Virus record (IMG/VR): IMGVR_UViG_3300031994_000001 | Location: 183,799-247,798 of that record | DNA: 64,000 nt | Reading direction: 5' to 3' (one strand) | Origin: a virus | Lineage: Duplodnaviria > Heunggongvirae > Uroviricota > Caudoviricetes | Part shown: piece after piece, positions 12,969-43,014 of the stretch | Numbering within the stretch: the stretch's first letter is position 1 | Layout: every line of letters starts with the position of its first letter | The notes under the pieces: generated by a model | Told to the model about the DNA's origin: nothing | Seen by the model: only the letters and a program-made list of their open reading frames with translations | Databases searched by the model: none | Made by a program: the position numbers and the translations under genes

Positions 12969-13134
12969 AGGTGTGTAGCATAAACAATGCGCGGCGTGCG
13001 TCTATTTTTTTTTCGGTTCTTGTCTTAAAGAACACAGCAGCAAAACTCACTATCATCTGTATTTAATAAATTTCAATCAAAATCATTCCGCGAGACGCTT
13101 TGCCGATATGCGGGTCACAACCCCGCCACACCTT
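12969..13134 (+). ncRNA. tRNA-scaffolded ncRNA A (degenerate D and T loops, large anticodon-arm insert)
   Basis: Acceptor AGGTGTG/CACACCT; D stem GCAT/ATGC; stem CGGCG/TGCCG extended by GCGTCT/AGACGC; T stem GCGGG/CCCGC with 7-nt loop; insert has GTTCTT/AAGAAC hairpin and AAGAA-N5-CAGCA. Confidence 0.75.
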
Positions 13135-13185
13135 TGTTTTGAATCCCTTGTATTTCTACTCATAATAATTATTTTTGTTGAAGAA

Positions 13186-16969: not shown

Positions 16970-17983
16970 ATGATTAGCATTATAACCCCCGCACACAAGG
17001 TGCTGCCGTGGTACAACGCTCGGCTCATAAACGTGTGCAGCCAAGACTCTGACGAGTGGGAGTGGATTATCCTTGACAACTCGAAGGACGGATGCGTTAA
17101 AGAATATGTTGACCGTTTCTTTACTGAAATGCAGGGTGTGAATTACTTGCATTGCAGGTCTAAAATCAAAGTCTATCACGAGCCGCAGTTTTCTGACATA
17201 CCGCTTGTTGACGGTAAAATGGGCAAGATGTGCAATCGAATGCTTGAACTCGCAACGTGCGATGATGACGGATTCTTTATGCGTCTTGACTTTGACGATT
17301 TTCTGTGTGACGGGAGTATCCGTATAATTAACAAGGCTATCCGTATGAATCCCGACAGCGAATTTATCACGGGTCAAATAGGCGATTGGCTTGTTATGAC
17401 AAAGAACGGGGATTTTGACTATTGCGATTTCAGCGATGCGTTCAACCACGACCCCGATGACTTGCTTGAAGTTATGCGGTGCGAGAAAATCTGCGACCCG
17501 TCATTGATTGACGAATACAAAGCAAGAATACAAAAATACGGGCTGACAAGAAAACTTGTTAGCGCACCCTGCCGTGTGACATTACCATATACCGAATTTA
17601 ATTTTTTTCGAAACGAAGTGCAGACTTTGGGCGCGGGTTGGGATATGTTCGGCGGAGTTGAGCATCCCCTTTGTTTGAAGAAAAGCGCGTTTCTGAAAAA
17701 GATAGGCGGATTCGTAACGAACAATTCAAAAGAGGATTTGGTGAGCCTACTCTATGTGACGAGATTCGAGAACATTGTCTATATAGACAACGCACTTTAC
17801 CTCCGCTGTGTAGTATGCAGCAAACGCGGAAGATTCTATTATATGGACAGCGGCACTATTGAGGTATGCAACCAAGCAAACAAGCAGATAGAGTGGGATA
17901 TAATCACTTCCGAACTTAAAGAGAATTACAGCAGGCTCGGATTGTTCGGGCTTGTAGTACCAAAACGCATTAAATTCAACTAA
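16970..17983 (+). CDS. GT-A fold (GT2-like) glycosyltransferase 1
   Basis: ISIITPAH start, WEWIILDNSKDG, RLDFDD (DxD). Confidence 0.75.
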   Translation: MISIITPAHKVLPWYNARLINVCSQDSDEWEWIILDNSKDGCVKEYVDRFFTEMQGVNYLHCRSKIKVYHEPQFSDIPLVDGKMGKMCNRMLELATCDDDGFFMRLDFDDFLCDGSIRIINKAIRMNPDSEFITGQIGDWLVMTKNGDFDYCDFSDAFNHDPDDLLEVMRCEKICDPSLIDEYKARIQKYGLTRKLVSAPCRVTLPYTEFNFFRNEVQTLGAGWDMFGGVEHPLCLKKSAFLKKIGGFVTNNSKEDLVSLLYVTRFENIVYIDNALYLRCVVCSKRGRFYYMDSGTIEVCNQANKQIEWDIITSELKENYSRLGLFGLVVPKRIKFN

Positions 17984-25181: not shown

Positions 25182-25544
25182 ATGAAAAACCAAATCGAAA
25201 GAATTACCAAGGGGCGTTATCACTACACAGTCAACGCCGAGAAGGGCGTGGTGGTCTGCATCACGTCAAAGAAGTTCAACGGTGACGAGTACCAAGGAAA
25301 GGGTATCTCACGCTGCAACAAGGATGACCAATTCAACAAGGAGTTGGGTATGGAAATCGCCAAACTCCGCGCCATCCAAAACTGCAACAAGACAATGTAC
25401 CGCTGCGAGTTCAGCGGTGTGCGCAACGACTTCCTCCAAAAGAAGATTGACTATTGGACTTACCTGCTCAATATGAAAACCTATTTGGAGGGTCAACGCA
25501 AGAAACTCGCCGAAGACCTCAACAAACTCACAAAGGATTTGTAA
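25182..25544 (+). CDS. Hypothetical protein with G.S.C..DD.F....G..IA..RA motif
   Basis: GKGISRCNKDDQFNKELGMEIAKLRA; start at ATG 25182 after the promoter motif. Confidence 0.7.
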   Translation: MKNQIERITKGRYHYTVNAEKGVVVCITSKKFNGDEYQGKGISRCNKDDQFNKELGMEIAKLRAIQNCNKTMYRCEFSGVRNDFLQKKIDYWTYLLNMKTYLEGQRKKLAEDLNKLTKDL

Positions 25545-26308
25545 TGAATCCGAAATGCGTAATCGTGCCAGATGTCCACGGCAGGGGATTTTGGCGCACA
25601 GCCATATCCCTTTGCCCCACGGACACACCGATAGTCTTTCTCGGTGACTATCTTGACCCATACGGTTTCGAGGGAATAACACCATACGAAGCGGTTGAGG
25701 TGTTCAAGGAAGTCATAGCGTTCAGAAAGGCTAACCCCAATGTCGTGCTTCTGCTCGGAAACCACGACTGCACCTATTTCATAGGAAAAAGCATCTGCGA
25801 GTGCCGTTGCAACTATGAACAGTATGACGAAATAAGAAAACTGTTCAAAGACAACGCGGAACTTTTCGGCATAGTTCATCCGTTTAGTGTTGGCAAAAAG
25901 AAATTCATTCTGTCGCACGCGGGAATCCAACCGAAATGGCTCGAAGACTATGGTTATACCGTTGACGACATTGAAAAGTTCAATGGCTATATCAAAGGGT
26001 TCGATGAGGAAAGTGAAAGGTTCAAGGGTGCTTTGAGTGCAGTCAGTTACTATCGCGGTGGAATCGGATACTCGGCTTCGCCAATTTGGGCTGACATACG
26101 GGAATACGGTTTGAAAATGAATGATTTGAGTGCGTTTGACTTCTATCAGATTGTCGGACACACATACATAGAAAAACCCGTTGTCGTTGGTAAAATCACC
26201 TGCATTGACGTGCAGAGGGTATTCTGCATAGGTGATAACGGAAAACTTTACGACTACGAAACAGAAAAGGAAATCAAGAACGATGGAAGAACAAATAATG
26301 GAAATTGA
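25544..26308 (+). CDS. Calcineurin-like metallophosphoesterase
   Basis: DVHG, GDYLD, GNHD, SHAG, GHT motifs; TAATG overlap. Confidence 0.9.
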   Translation: MNPKCVIVPDVHGRGFWRTAISLCPTDTPIVFLGDYLDPYGFEGITPYEAVEVFKEVIAFRKANPNVVLLLGNHDCTYFIGKSICECRCNYEQYDEIRKLFKDNAELFGIVHPFSVGKKKFILSHAGIQPKWLEDYGYTVDDIEKFNGYIKGFDEESERFKGALSAVSYYRGGIGYSASPIWADIREYGLKMNDLSAFDFYQIVGHTYIEKPVVVGKITCIDVQRVFCIGDNGKLYDYETEKEIKNDGRTNNGN

Positions 26309-27029: not shown

Positions 27030-27224
27030 ATGTGGGTGGCAAGAGACAAAGACGGAGGTTTGGCGGTTTATCGGGTGAAACCGATAAGAGATGCGCGGAA
27101 TTGGTCGTGCGACCGAAAGGTGTCCTGCGAATGGAGACCCTTGTGGTTCGGGTTCGATGACTTGAAATGGGAGGATGAACCGCTCGAAATTGACGATATG
27201 TACCTCGGATTACTACTTTGGTGA
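27030..27224 (+). CDS. Small phage hypothetical protein
   Basis: MWVARDKDG.L..Y..KP.R...W family motif. Confidence 0.7.
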   Translation: MWVARDKDGGLAVYRVKPIRDARNWSCDRKVSCEWRPLWFGFDDLKWEDEPLEIDDMYLGLLLW

Positions 27225-27242
27225 TACATAACTTATATATAA
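27221..27242 (+). repeat. 22-bp dispersed element GTGATACATAACTTATATATAA
   Basis: Exact inverted copy at 43088-43109; 18/19 match at 37922-37940. Confidence 0.8.
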
Positions 27243-27310
27243 ACACAATCATATCAACCTATAAAACAAGCATTTATAAAGAAAAATTTTTTTGTTGCGA
27301 AATTCAGATT

Positions 27311-27323
27311 TTTTTATTATATT
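27311..27323 (+). promoter_or_regulatory. TTTTTATTATATT promoter-like motif upstream of the DUF2828 gene
   Basis: Recurrent motif, 89 nt before the ATG at 27412. Confidence 0.7.
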
Positions 27324-27348
27324 ATCACAGTTGCAAATGTTTTTCAAA

Positions 27349-27388
27349 AAGAAGTTTTCAGCATTTGTATAAGTAATCAAACTTCTTG
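27349..27388 (+). promoter_or_regulatory. 5'-leader RNA hairpin carrying AAGAA-N5-CAGCA
   Basis: AAGAAGTTT (27349-57) pairs with AAACTTCTT (27379-87); CAGCA at 27359-63; same determinants as the tRNA-like RNA inserts. Confidence 0.65.
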
Positions 27389-27411
27389 CAAACCAAAAAA
27401 ATCGTATCAGT

Positions 27412-28932
27412 ATGATTGAACAAATGAAAGAAACATTGAACTCGGACGGCTACAATGTCGCCTACTCCGAAAACGGCGCAAAAATGTACGCAACAACGGG
27501 CAAGAACCTGCTTGACTTGTTCTTCAAAATCCCGATGTTCCGTAAATTCAAGGCAGGCAAACTGCCAAACGGTTCTAACCTTCAGAACTTGTTTATGCCC
27601 GCCCTCACCGAGAACCGCGAACTCTTTGCGAAGTTTATGTTCTACCTGCGCGATGTCCGTGGCGGCGTTGGTGAACGTGATATGTTCCGCAATATGTTCT
27701 TGTGGTTCTCCGACAACTATCCGCAGGAGGCAACGAAACTCATCGGATTCATTCCCGAATTTGGTCGTTGGGACGACCTTGTGTTCATCGCTGTAAACAC
27801 CCGCAGCAACGAAGTCTGCGAGGCAGCGTTCAACATCATCAAAGCCCAACTCGAAGCCGACAAGACTTCCGACCATCCTTCCTTGCTCGCCAAGTGGATG
27901 CCCTCTATCAACGCGGGCAACAAGGCGAAGAGCGATGCGAAGTTCGTCATTTCCAAACTCGGTATCATCAGCGCAGATTACCGTAAGATGCTCGCCGAAC
28001 TCCGTAAGAAAATTGACATTGTGGAGACCCACATTGCGTCAAAGACCTACGGTGAAATTGACTACGAGAAAGTGCCTTCCGTGGCTAACACCCGTTACGC
28101 CAACTTGTTCTTGAAATACGATGAGGACAGACGCAGGGCATACCTCGGCGCACTTGTCAAGGGCGAAGCCAAAATCAACGCTTCCGCCGTGTTCCCGCAC
28201 GACATTTGGAAGAAACTGCACGAGAGCAACTGCGACAGAACCACTGTCAACGAAATGTGGAAGAATCTTCCCGACTTCGTTAAGGGAGACACGGGTACGC
28301 TCGTTGTCCGTGACGGTTCGGGTTCTATGACTGTCCGTCTGCCGAACTCAACAACCCAAGTGCTTGACATCGCTTCCGCTTTGAGCGTGTACTTTGCCGA
28401 GCGTATGACGGGCGAGTTCAAGGGCAAGTTCATCACCTTCAGTTCAAACCCGCAGTTGGTTGACATTTCGGGTGCAAAGAACCTCTACGAAGCATACAGC
28501 ATTCTGCGCTCCTACAACGATTGCAGCAACACTGACATCGAAAAGACGTTTGACCTTGTGCTTGACACCGCAGTCAGACATCAAATCCCGCAGAGCGAAC
28601 TGCCGAAGCAACTCCTCATTATCTCCGATATGGAGTTCGACTACGCGCACTCCGTGGGCTACTACTCTCAAAGAGTGGACGATGACACGCTGTTCACCAC
28701 AATCGCCAAGAAGTACGAGAAAGCGGGCTACCAACTTCCGAAACTCGTGTTTTGGAATGTCAACTCCCGCACTGGTGCCATCCCAATGACCCAAAATCCC
28801 AACGGCGTAATCTTGGTTGCGGGTTACTCACCTGCAATCTGCAAGATGGTTCTCTCCGAAGAGACCGACCCGTACTTGGCTCTTGTCAAGGTGCTGATGG
28901 GCGAGCGTTATTCTCAAATCACATTAGGATAG
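27412..28932 (+). CDS. DUF2828-family TROVE/Ro60-like protein with C-terminal VWA domain
   Basis: SENGA...LDLFF, LRDVRGG.GER, FGRWDDL, LLAKWMPS, IDYEKVPS, MIDAS DGSGSM, IISDMEFD, VFWNVNS, GYSP. Confidence 0.85.
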   Translation: MIEQMKETLNSDGYNVAYSENGAKMYATTGKNLLDLFFKIPMFRKFKAGKLPNGSNLQNLFMPALTENRELFAKFMFYLRDVRGGVGERDMFRNMFLWFSDNYPQEATKLIGFIPEFGRWDDLVFIAVNTRSNEVCEAAFNIIKAQLEADKTSDHPSLLAKWMPSINAGNKAKSDAKFVISKLGIISADYRKMLAELRKKIDIVETHIASKTYGEIDYEKVPSVANTRYANLFLKYDEDRRRAYLGALVKGEAKINASAVFPHDIWKKLHESNCDRTTVNEMWKNLPDFVKGDTGTLVVRDGSGSMTVRLPNSTTQVLDIASALSVYFAERMTGEFKGKFITFSSNPQLVDISGAKNLYEAYSILRSYNDCSNTDIEKTFDLVLDTAVRHQIPQSELPKQLLIISDMEFDYAHSVGYYSQRVDDDTLFTTIAKKYEKAGYQLPKLVFWNVNSRTGAIPMTQNPNGVILVAGYSPAICKMVLSEETDPYLALVKVLMGERYSQITLG

Positions 28933-28936
28933 TGCT

Positions 28937-29347
28937 ATGGGATACATTATCGTAACTGCGATTGTTGCTTTTTGGGTGGGTGTGATTGTGGGCTACGCAA
29001 TCGCCCCCGCCTTAAAAAAGCAAAACGAGATTGACCGACAAATCGAAGAATTTGTTGAATCTGACGGTTCTTGCGAGGACAACAATGACAACGATGAGCA
29101 GCCGCAGTTGAAATCGGCGCAAGTCAATGACGGCAAGTTTGAAATCGGCGATATTGTTATGAAGGACTTCGCCATCGAAAATCCTTTTGCACAAGACAGT
29201 TGTATGCTGATTACAAACAAGCGGCGCAATGAAAAGGGTGTTATGTACTATGAGTATATGTTTTGCGACAGAGACGGCAGAAGTACGGGTATGATAAGGT
29301 ACGGCGACACTCTTGACAGATGCACAAAAGTCGGTCATAAAAACTAA
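28937..29347 (+). CDS. Hypothetical membrane protein
   Basis: N-terminal TM helix. Confidence 0.7.
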   Translation: MGYIIVTAIVAFWVGVIVGYAIAPALKKQNEIDRQIEEFVESDGSCEDNNDNDEQPQLKSAQVNDGKFEIGDIVMKDFAIENPFAQDSCMLITNKRRNEKGVMYYEYMFCDRDGRSTGMIRYGDTLDRCTKVGHKN

Positions 29348-29430: not shown

Positions 29431-30111
29431 ATGAAACATTACGATTCGATAAACAGAGTGCAGGACGATGGATTCCTGCTTGGCAAGAGCGTGTGGGCGT
29501 TCAACAAATTGGACGGTCAGAACTTCGCTGTCAAATACAATCCGAAGAAAAACATATACGATTCATTCGGCAGCAGGAACAGAATGGTTGACGAGAATGA
29601 CGAGCAGTTTGGCTGGGCTGTGCGGCATTTCAAGGAATCACTGATACCGAATGTACTGTCGGAACTTGTAAAGGCAAATAAGGGCAAAAACGGCGTGTTT
29701 GCAGGCGTTGACGAGATAACATTCTTCTTTGAATGGTACGGGGAACATTCATTCGCAGGCAGGCACGACCCGTCAGACATACTCCGTCTGTCTCTGATTG
29801 ACGTGTTCCTCAAAAAGAAAGGCTACATTGAGCCTAAACCGTACTATGACATATTCTGCAAAGACGATAGGATTGAAACACCCGAACTCGTATTCAAGGG
29901 CATTTTGACAAACTCATTCATACAAGAGATACGCGACAACGATTGGACGAAAGCGGATTGTTTATACCCTATGGTGAAAGAGGGTGTCGTGTGCCGCTCG
30001 TCATCTCTGCTGAAAGGTCAGCGTATGCCGAAAGTGAAGTTCAAGACCCAATGGTGGCTTGACCGCTTGCACGAACTCTACACAGAAGAAGAGTGCAAAC
30101 TCCTCGAATAA
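29431..30111 (+). CDS. Rnl2-like RNA ligase (adenylation domain only)
   Basis: NKLDGQN (motif I), FFEWYG (III), LIDV (IIIa), KEGVV (IV), KVKFKT (V). Confidence 0.7.
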   Translation: MKHYDSINRVQDDGFLLGKSVWAFNKLDGQNFAVKYNPKKNIYDSFGSRNRMVDENDEQFGWAVRHFKESLIPNVLSELVKANKGKNGVFAGVDEITFFFEWYGEHSFAGRHDPSDILRLSLIDVFLKKKGYIEPKPYYDIFCKDDRIETPELVFKGILTNSFIQEIRDNDWTKADCLYPMVKEGVVCRSSSLLKGQRMPKVKFKTQWWLDRLHELYTEEECKLLE

Positions 30112-41030: not shown

Positions 41031-41148
41031 GGGCGTGTGGCTGAATTGGTAAAGGCAATTAAGTCACAAAACGGTTCTCGAAAGAGAATACAGCAGCAAC
41101 TTATACAAACTCACTTATCGTATGGCGGTTCGAGTCCGCCCGCGTCCG
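41031..41148 (+). ncRNA. tRNA-scaffolded ncRNA B with 48-nt insert in place of the anticodon loop
   Basis: Acceptor GGGCGTG/CGCGTCC; D arm GCTGAATTGGTAAAGGC; stem TAAGT/ACTTA; T arm GGCGG-TTCGAGT-CCGCC; insert TTCTC-GAAA-GAGAA then N5-CAGCA. Confidence 0.85.
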
Positions 41149-41152
41149 CAAA

Positions 41153-41269
41153 GGGAGTGTGGCTGAACGGTTAGGCGGCGGGATGGCAGATAATTCTTGA
41201 ACAAGAACTTTACAGCAACATTAACCAAGGTAAACCCGTGAGATGGTGGTTCGACTCCATCCGCTCCCA
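41153..41269 (+). ncRNA. tRNA-scaffolded ncRNA C with 52-nt insert in place of the anticodon loop
   Basis: Acceptor GGGAGTG/CGCTCCC; D arm GCTGAACGGTTAGGC; stem GCGGG/CCCGT; T arm GGTGG-TTCGACT-CCATC; insert TTCTTG-AA-CAAGAA then CTTTA-CAGCA. Confidence 0.85.
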
Positions 41270-41284
41270 CAAAAATTTAGAAAT

Positions 41285-42127
41285 ATGCTATTCAACGTAG
41301 ATTATCACATAACTGACATTTGCAACCTCAACTGTGCGCATTGCAGTCATTACTGTCCGTTGGTGAAGTTTATACCAAACACAAAGCACAAGTCGGTTGA
41401 GCAGATTACGGCAGACTTGACGCTGCTGTCAAAGCACAAGGACTATTTGGAGAGATTGGGCATATTGGGCGGCGAACCCTGCCTGCACCCGCAACTCTCG
41501 AAGATATTGCGAATCGCCCGTGGGCTGTTTCCGAAAACAAAAATCGTTCTGACGACAAACGGAACGCTGACCGAGAAATACCTGCGGTGGAAAGATGCCA
41601 TTGAGGAAAACGACATACAACTTTGTGTAACGCTGTACCCGTTCAAAGGGGATGAACAATCCGCTTGGCAGAATTTCAAGAGAATATCCGACTTCATACC
41701 GTCAGTTGATGTTTGGGCATATCCTGCGCAGGTAGGTATGACATATCACCAACTCGCATACGAACCTTGCATAAAGGATGATATGGATAGAGAGGAAAAG
41801 GATAAACTCGAAAGCAAGGTGTTCGGCTGTTACAAGCGTTGGCAATGTAACCAACTCAAAGACGGCAAACTTTGGATATGCCACTATGCCGCTTACTTGG
41901 ACATACTTGAAAAGGCGTTTCCAAACAAGGTGAATATCGGTCAAGACGCACAATGCTATTTGGACTTGAACAATGACAATCTGACCGAGCAGGACATATA
42001 CCAATGGCAATGCGAGACATATCCAAAAATATGCAAGCACTGTACCGATGTCCAACACGGCGGCTATGACGGCGAAACAGAGCCTTGGTGCAGGACAAAG
42101 TATGACATTTCCGAATGGGTTGAATAA
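41285..42127 (+). CDS. Radical SAM protein
   Basis: CNLNCAHC (CxxxCxxC), LGGEP, TTNGT, extra C-terminal Cys cluster; start at ATG 41285. Confidence 0.88.
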   Translation: MLFNVDYHITDICNLNCAHCSHYCPLVKFIPNTKHKSVEQITADLTLLSKHKDYLERLGILGGEPCLHPQLSKILRIARGLFPKTKIVLTTNGTLTEKYLRWKDAIEENDIQLCVTLYPFKGDEQSAWQNFKRISDFIPSVDVWAYPAQVGMTYHQLAYEPCIKDDMDREEKDKLESKVFGCYKRWQCNQLKDGKLWICHYAAYLDILEKAFPNKVNIGQDAQCYLDLNNDNLTEQDIYQWQCETYPKICKHCTDVQHGGYDGETEPWCRTKYDISEWVE

Positions 42128-42138
42128 GCAATAAACTT

Positions 42139-42879
42139 ATGCGAAACAGAGAAGAACTTAATAGATGTATAGCGCAATCCTTAAAGGATGGTCGTTTTTA
42201 TGAAAGATTTGTTGAAGCCCAAATCAAAATAAATTTTCCGCAGTCTTTCTGCAAGCACATTGAGGATTTTGACGACAATATGGTGTTTAGAGTTGACGGC
42301 AAACAATGCGCAAAGACGGAAGTTGATGAAAAATACCACATTGATTTGTTTTTGAAATTTGACAAAAACAAAGAACGGATGCAGAGTATGGATGCCAAAT
42401 CTCCAAAACGCTTGAAACGCCAAGACACATCATATAATTATAACATAGAGTACGTTGAATTTACCAATGTGAATGGAGAAGAAGGATGGGTTCGTGGCAG
42501 AGCGGATTTTATCGCGTTTGTTACAAATGTTGACATAATCATAGTTAGCAGACATTGGCTTTTCGGATATTCAAATGATATTGTGAAACCAAACACACCC
42601 ATTTATATCGGTAACATAGCAGACAAATATCCAAATGACTATCTACATAAATTGAGCAGAAGAAAAGACCGAAAGGATTTGATTACTATATTAAGCACGG
42701 AAGAAATACGCAAAATTGCCAAAGAGCAAAATGGATTGATTATGCGATTTGACAAAAGCATTGATTGGAATCAAATTGACCAAATGAGAAAAAACGGTGA
42801 AGATGTGACTGAATTGCTTGATGTTGACGCGACTGTTATTGATTACAGAAAGACTGAATCTGTCGCAGAAGCATCATAA
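42139..42879 (+). CDS. PD-(D/E)xK-like nuclease (possible homing endonuclease)
   Basis: HIDL...MDAK catalytic-like pattern, VEF...GWVRG.ADFIAF; AT-rich relative to neighbours. Confidence 0.55.
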   Translation: MRNREELNRCIAQSLKDGRFYERFVEAQIKINFPQSFCKHIEDFDDNMVFRVDGKQCAKTEVDEKYHIDLFLKFDKNKERMQSMDAKSPKRLKRQDTSYNYNIEYVEFTNVNGEEGWVRGRADFIAFVTNVDIIIVSRHWLFGYSNDIVKPNTPIYIGNIADKYPNDYLHKLSRRKDRKDLITILSTEEIRKIAKEQNGLIMRFDKSIDWNQIDQMRKNGEDVTELLDVDATVIDYRKTESVAEAS

Positions 42880-42885
42880 ACAGCA

Positions 42886-43014
42886 GGACGTGTAGCCAAA
42901 TCGGTAAAGGCAGAGGAGCGCAAAAGTTTCTTGTAAAGAAACAATCAGCAACCATAGCAAAGAAAACCTCGCATACACATAGGTGTATTGGTGGTTCGAG
43001 TCCACCCGCGTCCA
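42886..43014 (+). ncRNA. tRNA-scaffolded ncRNA D (class II variable arm) with 50-nt insert in place of the anticodon loop
   Basis: Acceptor GGACGTG/CGCGTCC; D arm GCCAAATCGGTAAAGGC; stem GAGG/CCTC; variable arm ATACAC/GTGTAT; T arm GGTGG-TTCGAGT-CCACC; insert GTTTCTT-GTA-AAGAAAC and AAGAA-N5-CAGCA. Confidence 0.85.

What the first reader, a model, noticed from the sequence alone, without database searches (positions are those of the whole stretch)
27311..28932. The ncRNA motif recurs, circularly permuted, in the 5' leader of a TROVE/Ro60-like (DUF2828) gene: candidate phage Ro-like RNP with autoregulation
Seen in sequence: between the promoter motif (27311-27323) and the ATG (27412) lies AAGAA-GTTTT-CAGCA (27349-27363). 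Its AAGAAGTTT pairs with downstream AAACTTCTT followed by G. This has the same helix, the same TTCTY-G strand and the same N5 spacing to CAGCA as all four tRNA-like inserts, but with the strand order swapped. Established: DUF2828 proteins have the TROVE-like helical region plus VWA architecture of Ro60, which binds Y RNAs. RNA-binding proteins often repress their own mRNA through a mimic of their target. Inference: this protein binds the helix+CAGCA site in both its own leader and the tRNA-scaffolded RNAs, forming an undescribed phage RNP, plausibly linked to the co-encoded RNA repair enzymes.
Basis: partly seen in the sequence, partly recalled or inferred. Interest (0 to 1): 0.9.

Follow-up and report, generated by a model that had tools for sequence, protein, structure and literature searches.

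The report
Ro60-like gene's leader carries its RNA handle
A giant gut phage places a stripped-down copy of the RNA "handle" found on its tRNA-shaped small RNAs in front of the gene for its Ro60-like ring protein, so the protein probably binds its own message and limits its own synthesis, though no binding has been measured.

Summary
At 27349-27388, between a phage promoter and the ATG at 27412, lies a 40-nt hairpin: AAGAAGTTT, then TCAGCA, then AAACTTCTT and G.

The gene product (DUF2828 plus a vWA-like domain) folds like Ro60. All 13 best PDB matches are Ro60/TROVE.

The leader hairpin belongs to a widespread RNA "handle" family:
- a closing helix that starts RRGR;
- exactly 10 nt from the helix start to CAGCA;
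- a G after the 3' strand.

Strict copies lie within 300 nt upstream of 36 of 58 dereplicated DUF2828 genes. Reverse-complement and in-gene controls gave none, and shuffles averaged 0.015. The handle sits beside the gene in the cultured phages A511, CP81, KVP40, LeBron and EC6.

Homologous leaders keep the helix through compensatory changes.

Autoregulation is inferred, not shown. In several lineages the copy nearest the gene is a minimal handle that abuts or covers the ribosome-binding site.

I found no matching Rfam family and no paper describing these RNAs. This scan has already noted the same protein-RNA family in at least eight other genomes.

The parts
27295..27323 (+). Phage promoter: -35-like TTGCGA, a 17-nt spacer and -10-like TATATT. 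It includes the genome-wide motif TTTTTATTATATT at 27311-27323. The predicted transcript start is near 27329-27331.
   Evidence: One search gives a 9/12 match. TTATTATATT occurs 43 times in the genome, with a median of 25 nt to the next ATG; here the distance is 88 nt.
27332..27339 (+). TGCAAATG, invariant in relatives. It can pair with CATTTGTA at 27362-27369, as an alternative helix or as the first stem of an H-type pseudoknot. This pairing is unresolved.
   Evidence: -4.7 kcal/mol alone. L011 and L013 offer a different pairing, TTGCGT with ACGCAG, at a shifted register.
27349..27388 (+). Minimal 40-nt "CAGCA handle": helix 5' strand AAGAAGTTT (27349-27357), CAGCA core (27359-27363), variable loop, helix 3' strand AAACTTCTT (27379-27387) and terminal G (27388).
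   Evidence: Compensatory changes occur in L008 (AAGGAG/CTCCTT) and in L011 and L013 (GAGAGGC/GCCTCTC).
27389..27411 (+). A-rich 23-nt spacer between the handle and the start codon. It has no Shine-Dalgarno sequence and no terminator.
   Evidence: one search found no terminator-like site in 27150-27500.
27412..28932 (+). Gene for a 506-aa Ro60-like protein: DUF2828 helical region plus a vWA-like DUF7788 domain with the MIDAS-type motif DGSGS at residues 301-305.
41031..41148 (+). tRNA-shaped RNA A. The handle is in hairpin form inside the anticodon region (GTTCTC-GAAA-GAGAAT-ACAG-CAGCAAC).
41153..41269 (+). tRNA-shaped RNA B, with a hairpin-form handle (TTCTTG-AAC-AAGAAC-TTTA-CAGCAAC).
42886..43014 (+). 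tRNA-shaped RNA C, with a hairpin-form handle (GTTTCTT-GTA-AAGAAAC-AAT-CAGCAAC).
12970..13140 (+). tRNA-like RNA D. It has its own promoter and terminator and a hairpin-form handle (GTTCTT-GTCTTA-AAGAAC-ACAG-CAGCAAA).
   Evidence: Rfam tRNA does not match it.
29431..30111 (+). RNA ligase gene (PF09414), two genes downstream. The same order is kept in relatives L004 and L008.
25454..26308 (+). Metallophosphatase gene upstream, given as context for a possible RNA-repair link.
   Evidence: the same neighbour is seen in L006-L008.

Best explanation
The 40-nt hairpin at 27349-27388 is a minimal copy of the RNA handle that marks the partner RNAs of the phage's Ro60-like DUF2828 protein. The handle is a helix starting RRGR, with CAGCA exactly 10 nt from the helix start and a G after the 3' strand.

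The copy sits in the 5' UTR of that protein's own mRNA, 23 nt before the AUG. The most likely mechanism is negative feedback. The ring protein is normally held by its stronger partner RNAs: at least five stem-closed and seven tRNA-scaffolded handles in this genome. When protein exceeds those partners, it binds the weaker leader copy, which has U instead of A on both sides of CAGCA, and hinders 30S loading.

Shown here:
- the element, its conservation and its covariation;
- the Ro60 fold of the protein;
- the genome-wide association of handle and gene.

Inferred: that the protein binds the handle, and that binding represses translation.
For: 1. Fold. The AF2 model has pLDDT 91. The 13 best PDB matches are all full-length Ro60/TROVE, including Thermus phage phiLo Ro60, with E-values from 1e-9 to 3e-5.

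2. Conservation and covariation. The leader is near-invariant at 78-84% protein identity, with one compensatory pair in L008. At 59-60% identity, L011 and L013 have the same promoter. Three helix pairs are exchanged (GAGAGGC/GCCTCTC), while CAGCA, the register and the terminal G are kept.

3. Association of handle and gene.
- 36 of 58 dereplicated DUF2828 loci have at least one strict handle within 300 nt upstream. Reverse-complement and in-gene controls gave 0, and shuffles averaged 0.015.
- Handles found by sequence alone have the gene within a few kb in 13 of 28 cases, against 2 of 52 for unpaired chance matches. Nine of 10 further handle-bearing contigs carry the gene elsewhere on the contig.
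- The base rate of the gene is 711 of 50,697 phage records.

4. Operator-like anatomy.
- The copy nearest the gene is a 36-41-nt minimal handle in several lineages.
- In KVP40 the Shine-Dalgarno sequence lies in the loop and the AUG in the 3' strand.
- In L048 and L057 the Shine-Dalgarno sequence lies in the loop and the handle ends 2 nt before the ATG.
- In L042, L060 and L045 the terminal G is the first base of the Shine-Dalgarno sequence.
- Short proximal handles have degenerate flanks: A after CAGCA in 5 of 15, against 117 of 123 long elements.

5. This leader is 88 nt long, against a median of 25 nt for the phage's promoters.

6. There is a precedent. Yrl1 and Yrl2 lie upstream of the phiLo Ro60 gene and bind that protein (PMC12135203).
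Against: - No binding or expression data exist.
- As a free RNA the hairpin is weak (-5.8 kcal/mol). The leader's MFE is no better than shuffles (z = -0.49).
- A sequence-only profile of the handle's 5' half, built from other phages, does not retrieve this leader. The leader lacks the A before CAGCA (85% conserved in long elements) and the A after it (95% conserved).
- In EC6 and LeBron the handles lie only downstream of the gene. In L012, L016 and Aeh1 I found none upstream. Feedback through a leader therefore cannot be general.
- In this phage the handle ends 23 nt before the AUG, which is at the edge of a ribosome footprint.
- The lineages counted as support are related, so the counts are not fully independent.
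Confidence: 0.5

Rival explanations
1. The leader hairpin is a co-transcribed small partner RNA, a minimal Y-like RNA. It would be cut out of the 5' UTR and serve in the RNP, as yrlA and yrlB are transcribed within the Salmonella rsr operon, and would not control translation.
For: - In most phages the handles next to the gene look like independent small RNAs, present in 1-4 tandem copies. In EC6 and LeBron they lie downstream of the gene.
- The middle LeBron element carries a YrlA-type tRNA-like body.
- Yrl1 and Yrl2 of phiLo lie upstream of their Ro60 gene (PMC12135203).
Against: - The leader copy has no effector module, only a 15-nt variable loop.
- It has sub-optimal flanks.
- It has no terminator or obvious processing signal.
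- Minimal copies recur exactly at ribosome-binding sites in other lineages.
Confidence: 0.25
2. The hairpin is bound by another factor, phage or host, such as the neighbouring RNA ligase, a nuclease or a tRNA enzyme. On this view the DUF2828 protein is only a syntenic companion of the handle RNAs.
For: - No direct link between protein and RNA exists.
- An RNA ligase, a metallophosphatase and an ATPase are conserved neighbours.
- Handles also sit in tRNA arrays far from the gene.
Against: - The handle's association is with DUF2828 itself, across very different gene neighbourhoods.
- The protein's fold is that of a protein known to bind stem-closed small RNAs.
Confidence: 0.12
3. The hairpin is a generic 5' stabiliser or RNase processing site of the mRNA, and its likeness to the handle is coincidental or a relic of local duplication.
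For: - 5' hairpins commonly stabilise mRNAs.
- The leader copy deviates from the consensus flanks, and a sequence profile misses it.
Against: - The chance rate of the full descriptor is about 3e-4 per upstream region.
- L011 and L013 change the helix but keep CAGCA(A), the register and the G.
- The same placement recurs in unrelated lineages.
Confidence: 0.08

Closest known systems
Ro60 (Rsr/TROVE) with Y RNAs: bacterial and mycobacteriophage YrlA/YrlB (Chen et al. 2014, PMC4201824; Rfam RF02553) and Thermus phage phiLo Ro60 with Yrl1/Yrl2 (PMC12135203; PDB 9KOP, 9L5Y)
   Same: - A ring of helical repeats plus a vWA domain.
- Small RNAs whose 5' and 3' ends form the protein-binding stem, with swappable tRNA-like bodies.
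- RNA genes placed next to the protein gene, upstream of it in phiLo.
- RNA-repair enzymes nearby.
- One LeBron element aligns to the whole YrlA model (39.8 bits).
   Different: - There is no sequence-level similarity to TROVE or to solved Ro60 structures.
- The RNA site is a helix starting RRGR plus (A)CAGCA(A) at a fixed 10-nt register, not GNCGAAN0-1G or GGUCCGA.
- No Rfam match reaches threshold.
- In this window the handle is embedded in the mRNA leader and, in the tRNA-shaped RNAs, closed at the opposite end.
- I know of no reported autoregulation for Ro60 (my own knowledge).
Translational autoregulation by mimicry of the primary RNA ligand: E. coli ThrRS operator, ribosomal proteins (S8, L1, L20, S15), and T4 gp32, gp43 and RegA (my own knowledge of these systems)
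   Same: - A copy of the protein's RNA target lies in its own 5' UTR, next to or over the ribosome-binding site.
- The operator copy is weaker than the primary ligands, so repression would start only when the protein is in excess.
   Different: - Nothing has been measured here.
- In this phage the site ends 23 nt before the AUG and there is no Shine-Dalgarno sequence.
- The putative repressor is a 57-kDa ring protein.
Class I RNAs of dictyostelid social amoebae (Kjellin et al. 2021, PMC7919456)
   Same: - RNAs of about 60 nt with a short terminal stem that covaries.
- A conserved 11-nt motif directly 3' of the 5' strand, with conserved T3, C6, C9, A10 and A11. This is compatible with ..U..CAGCAA.
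- They start with AAG and end with CUGU, and the interior is variable.
   Different: - They are eukaryotic, with their own promoter element (DUSE).
- The known binder is an RRM protein (Rnp1A/Cibp).
- The likeness is a lead taken from earlier scan notes. I checked it only against the paper's text, not by alignment.

Membership tests
CAGCA-handle RNAs that accompany DUF2828 genes (not in Rfam; defined here and in earlier scan notes) | Closing helix of at least 6-7 bp whose 5' strand starts [A/G/T]-R-G-R | tested here: met
   AAGAAGTTT pairs with AAACTTCTT over 9 bp. The helix covaries in L008, L011 and L013.
CAGCA-handle RNAs that accompany DUF2828 genes (not in Rfam; defined here and in earlier scan notes) | Exactly 10 nt from the first helix base to the CAGCA core | tested here: met
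   AAGAAGTTTT, then CAGCA. The same register holds in the tRNA-shaped RNAs A-G and in all 138 distinct strict elements.
CAGCA-handle RNAs that accompany DUF2828 genes (not in Rfam; defined here and in earlier scan notes) | A on both sides of the core (ACAGCAA) | tested here: not met
   The window has UCAGCAU. A precedes the core in 105 of 123 long elements and follows it in 117 of 123. Among short proximal elements the figures are only 5 of 15 for each position. A 5'-half sequence profile misses the leader.
CAGCA-handle RNAs that accompany DUF2828 genes (not in Rfam; defined here and in earlier scan notes) | G directly after the 3' strand | tested here: met
   G at 27388, conserved in all relatives.
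CAGCA-handle RNAs that accompany DUF2828 genes (not in Rfam; defined here and in earlier scan notes) | Lies beside a DUF2828 gene or in the phage's tRNA array | tested here: met
   It ends 23 nt before the gene's ATG. The family-wide association is shown.
Ro60 / TROVE proteins | Ring of helical repeats followed by a vWA domain with a MIDAS motif | tested here: met
   AF2 model with pLDDT 91. The top 13 Foldseek PDB hits are full-length Ro60, with TM-scores of 0.40-0.58. DGSGS at residues 301-305 is invariant.
Ro60 / TROVE proteins | Match to Pfam TROVE (PF05731), or sequence similarity to solved Ro60 structures | tested here: not met
   Pfam gives DUF2828, DUF7788 and a weak VWA_2 only. phmmer and a profile search against PDB sequences find no Ro60.
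Ro60 / TROVE proteins | Binds Y RNAs on the outer surface and single-stranded RNA ends in the cavity | not testable with these tools
   This needs biochemistry or a structure of the complex.
Y RNA / YrlA (Rfam RF02553) | Rfam model match at the gathering score, and the GNCGAAN0-1G motif | tested here: not met
   No YrlA hit in the window. The best related hit is LeBron at 39.8 bits against a gathering score of 69. The motif here is CAGCA.
Autoregulatory translational operators that mimic the protein's RNA ligand | A copy of the ligand in the protein's own 5' UTR at or near the ribosome-binding site | tested here: met
   The site overlaps the Shine-Dalgarno sequence or the AUG in KVP40, L048/L057, L042/L060 and L045.
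Autoregulatory translational operators that mimic the protein's RNA ligand | The protein binds the operator and represses its own translation | not testable with these tools
   This needs EMSA, toeprinting or reporter assays.

The most novel reading that the evidence does not exclude
The Ro60-like protein runs a small post-transcriptional regulon. Handle copies sit in the leaders of its own gene, of a zinc-ribbon plus IMPDH/GMP-reductase-like operon (genome 133746), and of a gene resembling a 5'(3')-deoxyribonucleotidase of the HAD type, named only from its DVDG motif (genome 369270, minus strand). In relatives L011 and L013 the IMPDH-like gene is adjacent to the DUF2828 gene.

The protein would be titrated by a dozen decoy or partner RNAs built on tRNA bodies and anticodon-loop mimics. 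Damage to, or consumption of, those tRNA-like RNAs, for example by host anticodon nucleases, would then re-set expression of RNA-repair and nucleotide-metabolism genes.
Probability: 0.15. Interest if true: 0.85.

Novelty: new variant of a known kind. Interest (0 to 1): 0.7.

Why it matters
Ro60 and its Y RNAs are a long-studied particle whose function is still poorly understood. They are known in animals, in about 5% of bacteria and in a few phages.

The results here point to a second, sequence-unrelated branch: DUF2828 proteins with CAGCA-handle RNAs. It is present in hundreds of phage records, including easily handled model phages such as the FelixO1-like EC6, Listeria A511, Vibrio KVP40, Campylobacter CP81 and mycobacteriophage LeBron.

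The leader copy offers a simple handle on function. If the protein represses its own message through a weak copy of its RNA ligand, then reporter assays and mutants can define the recognition code. They can also test what titrates the protein during infection.

The work also marks several "hypothetical ORFs" and unannotated gaps next to these genes as RNA genes.

Tried and rejected
- **Thermodynamics.** The leader's MFE is not better than shuffles (z = -0.49). The case for a structure rests on comparison, not on energy.

- **Pseudoknot.** TGCAAATG (27332-27339) can pair with CATTTGTA (27362-27369), and L011 offers TTGCGT with ACGCAG. The register differs between the two clades and there is no covariation within a clade, so this is left open.

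- **Cross-clade alignment for pair counting.** MAFFT misaligned the two helix types (A3), so the compensatory changes were read directly from the sequences.

- **Covariance model of the open-form handle.** MAFFT aligned only the last five bases of the 3' strand (A4), so no useful structure could be passed to build_rna_model. I used an explicit descriptor with shuffle, reverse-complement and in-gene controls instead.

- **Descriptor under-calling.** The descriptor rejects helices whose extension adds G-U pairs, and first-pair mismatches. The counts are therefore conservative.

- **nhmmer profile of the 5' half.** Twenty-two columns carry too little information. The profile ranks the tRNA-array elements first and misses the DUF2828 leader.

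- **Rfam.** Only tRNA matches, plus sub-threshold YrlA.

- **Sequence searches against PDB.** No Ro60 found.

- **Distant IMPDH-like homologues (L103-L109).** They carry no handles. The IMPDH link is therefore specific to this clade.

- **G001.** This 281-kb phage with a 43%-identical protein has no long tRNA-like hits, but it does have one open-form handle 265 nt upstream of the gene.
Full report
**1. What is in the sequence**

The window is positions 183799-247798 of a 413,021-bp IMG/VR phage record that CheckV rates complete. Its GC content is 43%, and ARAGORN finds 37 ordinary tRNA genes at genome positions 12.8-27 kb.

The coordinates in the finding are exact:
- a promoter-like site, TTGCGA-17-TATATT, at 27295-27323, which includes the motif TTTTTATTATATT;
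- AAGAAGTTTTCAGCA at 27349-27363;
- AAACTTCTT at 27379-27387, followed by G at 27388;
- an A-rich 23-nt spacer with no terminator;
- the ATG at 27412 of a 506-codon ORF that ends at 28932.

The promoter motif is a general promoter of this phage. TTATTATATT occurs 43 times, and the median distance to the next ATG is 25 nt. The 88-nt leader here is among the ten longest.

**2. The protein**

Pfam assigns DUF2828 (1.8e-31) and DUF7788 (2.2e-43, vWA-like). PHROG 850 names the family "RNA-binding protein". Sequence and profile searches against PDB sequences find no Ro60.

An AlphaFold2 model built from a 50-sequence alignment is confident (pLDDT 91.1, pTM 0.90). Its 13 best Foldseek matches in the PDB are all full-length Ro60/TROVE. 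They include Xenopus and human Ro60, Deinococcus Rsr and the Ro60 of Thermus phage phiLo, with E-values from 9e-10 to 3e-5. Isolated vWA domains follow only after these. A MIDAS-type DGSGS at residues 301-305 is invariant.

The family is present in 711 of 50,697 phage records. Some mycobacteriophage records already annotate it as "Ro-like RNA binding protein". LeBron gp53 is reported to be toxic when overexpressed (PMC13148394).

**3.

Three Rfam tRNA matches in the window carry inserts of 48-59 nt in the anticodon region (41031-41148, 41153-41269, 42886-43014). A fourth tRNA-like RNA with its own promoter and terminator lies at about 12970-13140. The tRNA array outside the window holds three more.

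All seven carry a short hairpin whose 3' strand starts RAGA or GAGG. CAGCA(A) follows exactly 10 nt from that first purine, and the pyrimidine strand is followed by G. In one of them the helix is CCTC/GAGG instead of TTCTT/AAGAA. The 83%-related contig G002 has orthologues with further helix variants.

**4. The leader element is conserved and covaries**

In six loci from relatives whose proteins are 78-84% identical, the stretch from GCAAATG to CTTCTTG is almost invariant, while the flanking intergenic sequence is not. L008 changes AAGAAG/CTTCTT to AAGGAG/CTCCTT.

In L011 and L013 (59-60% identity) the same promoter precedes GAGAGGC-ACG-CAGCAAA...GCCTCTC-G. Three of the seven helix pairs are exchanged on both sides, while the core, the 10-nt register and the terminal G are kept.

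**5. It belongs to a family tied to the gene**

I wrote a descriptor from these features: a helix of at least 6 bp that starts [AGT]RGR, CAGCA at +10, and a partner strand within 115 nt followed by G. I applied it to about 100 DUF2828 loci.

Of 58 loci left after dereplication, 36 have at least one element in the 300 nt before the start codon, 58 elements in all. The controls were:
- the reverse complement of the same regions: 0;
- 310-nt windows inside the genes: 0;
- 200 dinucleotide shuffles: mean 0.015, maximum 1.

Cultured phages show the same thing:
- three tandem copies upstream in Bacillus phage Thrax1 and in Listeria A511;
- two upstream in Campylobacter CP81;
- one upstream in Enterococcus EF5;
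- one over the translation start in Vibrio KVP40;
- three downstream in the FelixO1-like EC6 and in mycobacteriophage LeBron.

The middle LeBron copy encloses a YrlA-type tRNA-like body. It aligns to the whole Rfam YrlA model at 39.8 bits, below the gathering score of 69.

I also tested the association in the other direction. The 14-base pattern AAGACACNNACAGCAA was used to pull loci from IMG/VR.
- At 28 of 80 loci the site forms a proper handle. A DUF2828 gene lies within the few kb held for 13 of these.
- Among the 52 unpaired matches, only 2 have the gene nearby.
- Nine of 10 further handle-bearing contigs have the gene elsewhere on the contig. The exception is an 80%-complete fragment.

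**6. The permutation**

In the common form the handle's helix is closed by the RNA's own 5' and 3' ends, and a variable body follows CAGCAA. In the tRNA-shaped RNAs of this phage the same helix is closed by a short loop at the end where the termini would be, and the tRNA body takes the place of the variable module.

The leader, however, has the family's usual topology.

This genome also has five canonical open-form handles inside its tRNA array, at genome 13680, 14244, 14361, 14911 and 16549.

**7. Is it a regulator?**

This part is inference. The evidence in favour is anatomical.

- The copy nearest the gene is often a minimal handle of 36-41 nt with no body. This holds for the window clade, L011/L013, the L031/L033/L041 group and L048/L057.
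- These minimal copies end next to or inside the translation initiation region.
  - In KVP40 the GAGGA lies in the loop and the AUG in the 3' strand.
  - In L048 and L057 AAGGAG lies in the loop and the handle ends 2 nt before the ATG.
  - In L042, L060 and L045 the terminal G is the first base of GAGGAG.
  - In L067 the gap to the start is 12 nt.
- Short proximal copies have degenerate flanks. A follows the core in 5 of 15 of them, against 117 of 123 long elements. A weaker site of this kind is what an operator that competes with stronger primary ligands would need.

The evidence against:
- Nothing has been measured.
- The hairpin is weak as a free RNA.
- A sequence-only profile does not find it.
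- Some lineages have no upstream copy at all.
- In this phage the handle ends 23 nt before the AUG.

The main rival is that the hairpin is simply a co-transcribed minimal partner RNA.

**8. Comparison with what is known**

The closest system is Ro60 with Y RNAs. Bacterial YrlA RNAs combine a terminal Ro-binding stem with a tRNA-like body (PMC4201824). Phage phiLo encodes two Y-like RNAs upstream of its Ro60 gene, and they bind the protein (PMC12135203).

The present system shares the fold, the RNA layout and the gene-RNA adjacency. It differs in three ways:
- it has no detectable sequence similarity to TROVE;
- it uses a different RNA motif, CAGCA at a fixed register instead of GNCGAAN0-1G;
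- it has no Rfam family.

A full-text search for DUF2828 found only plant and tardigrade papers. Searches on phage Ro60 found nothing on these RNAs.

Earlier notes of this scan had already reached the "Y-RNA-like partner" reading, both for the tRNA-shaped RNAs of this genome and for the same family in at least eight other genomes. I re-derived the family association independently.

Those notes also gave a lead to the Class I RNAs of dictyostelids. The published description of those RNAs fits the handle's layout: a 6-bp covarying terminal stem and an adjacent 11-nt motif with conserved T3, C6, C9, A10 and A11 (PMC7919456).

**9. Verdict**

The protein is Ro60-like in fold. The leader hairpin is a degenerate member of the handle family that accompanies this gene. 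The claim of autoregulation is plausible, testable and unproven.

I rate the system a new variant of a known kind, with interest 0.7.

Noticed in passing
Genome 133705-133840 (L010:706-840), outside the window: A second leader behind the same promoter subtype (…TATATTATCACAG). AAGAAG-CGGG-CAGCAA…CTTCTT-G (6 bp) precedes a zinc-ribbon ORF and an IMPDH/GMP-reductase-like gene. In relatives L011 and L013 the IMPDH-like gene lies directly downstream of the DUF2828 gene, behind that gene's leader.
   Followed up: partly
Genome 369366-369190, minus strand, outside the window: A third leader, with two tandem handles: GAGGAAC-ACG-CAGCG…GTTCCTC-G and AAGAACC-TTT-CAGCAA…GGTTCTT-G. It lies between a phage promoter and a 185-aa gene that begins MRQRIGIDVDGVL. 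I guess from the DVDG motif that this is a HAD-type 5'(3')-deoxyribonucleotidase, but I ran no family search on it.
   Followed up: partly
Genome 13680, 14244, 14361, 14911, 16549 (L009:2671-5603), outside the window: Five canonical open-form handles (AAGGTG or AAGAT[GA] helices, ACAGCAA or GCAGCAA) lie interspersed with the tRNA genes. Two enclose anticodon-stem-loop look-alikes, with loops CTTTTAA and CTGTAAC.
   Followed up: partly
Handle elements of many loci (L017-L101): 49 of 123 distinct long handles hold a 4-5-bp hairpin with a 7-nt YU-NNN-R-N loop. The most frequent 'anticodons' are UUU, UGA, CAA, CAU and GUU. Shuffled interiors give about 9. Fourteen handles hold a T-loop-like GGTTCRANTCC. 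The bodies may mimic parts of tRNAs that anticodon nucleases target.
   Followed up: partly
Genome 17481-17599 (L009:6482-6600), outside the window: A seventh tRNA-shaped RNA, whose handle helix is CCTC/GAGG instead of TTCTT/AAGAA. This shows covariation within one genome.
   Followed up: yes
L095:2964-3008 (Vibrio phage KVP40, NC_005083.2): The handle spans the translation start of KVP40.0300. GACATT-TTA-CAGCAA is followed by the GAGGA Shine-Dalgarno sequence in the loop, and AATGTC holds the AUG. This makes KVP40 a convenient cultured system for testing repression.
   Followed up: partly
L098:2948-3196 (Mycobacterium phage LeBron, NC_014461.1), between gp53 and gp54: Three unannotated handle RNAs followed by a terminator. 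The middle one has a YrlA-type tRNA-like body.
   Followed up: partly
L100:1343-1480 (Campylobacter phage CP81): The annotated ORF140 lies at L100:1343-1480, between the tRNA array and the DUF2828 gene. Two handle RNAs occupy L100:1305-1456, covering most of it, so it may not be a real gene.
   Followed up: no
window 27332-27369: TGCAAATG and CATTTGTA are invariant in relatives and complementary. They would form either an alternative helix that hides part of CAGCA, or an H-type pseudoknot with the handle helix.
   Followed up: partly
window 28937-29347: A 136-aa ORF starts 4 nt after the DUF2828 stop codon, and its N-terminus looks hydrophobic. A gene of 117-138 aa holds this position in relatives L004-L008. 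It has no Pfam match.
   Followed up: no
window 41285-42127: A radical-SAM gene sits between tRNA-shaped RNAs B and C, and an unassigned 246-aa ORF at 42139-42879 follows it.
   Followed up: no
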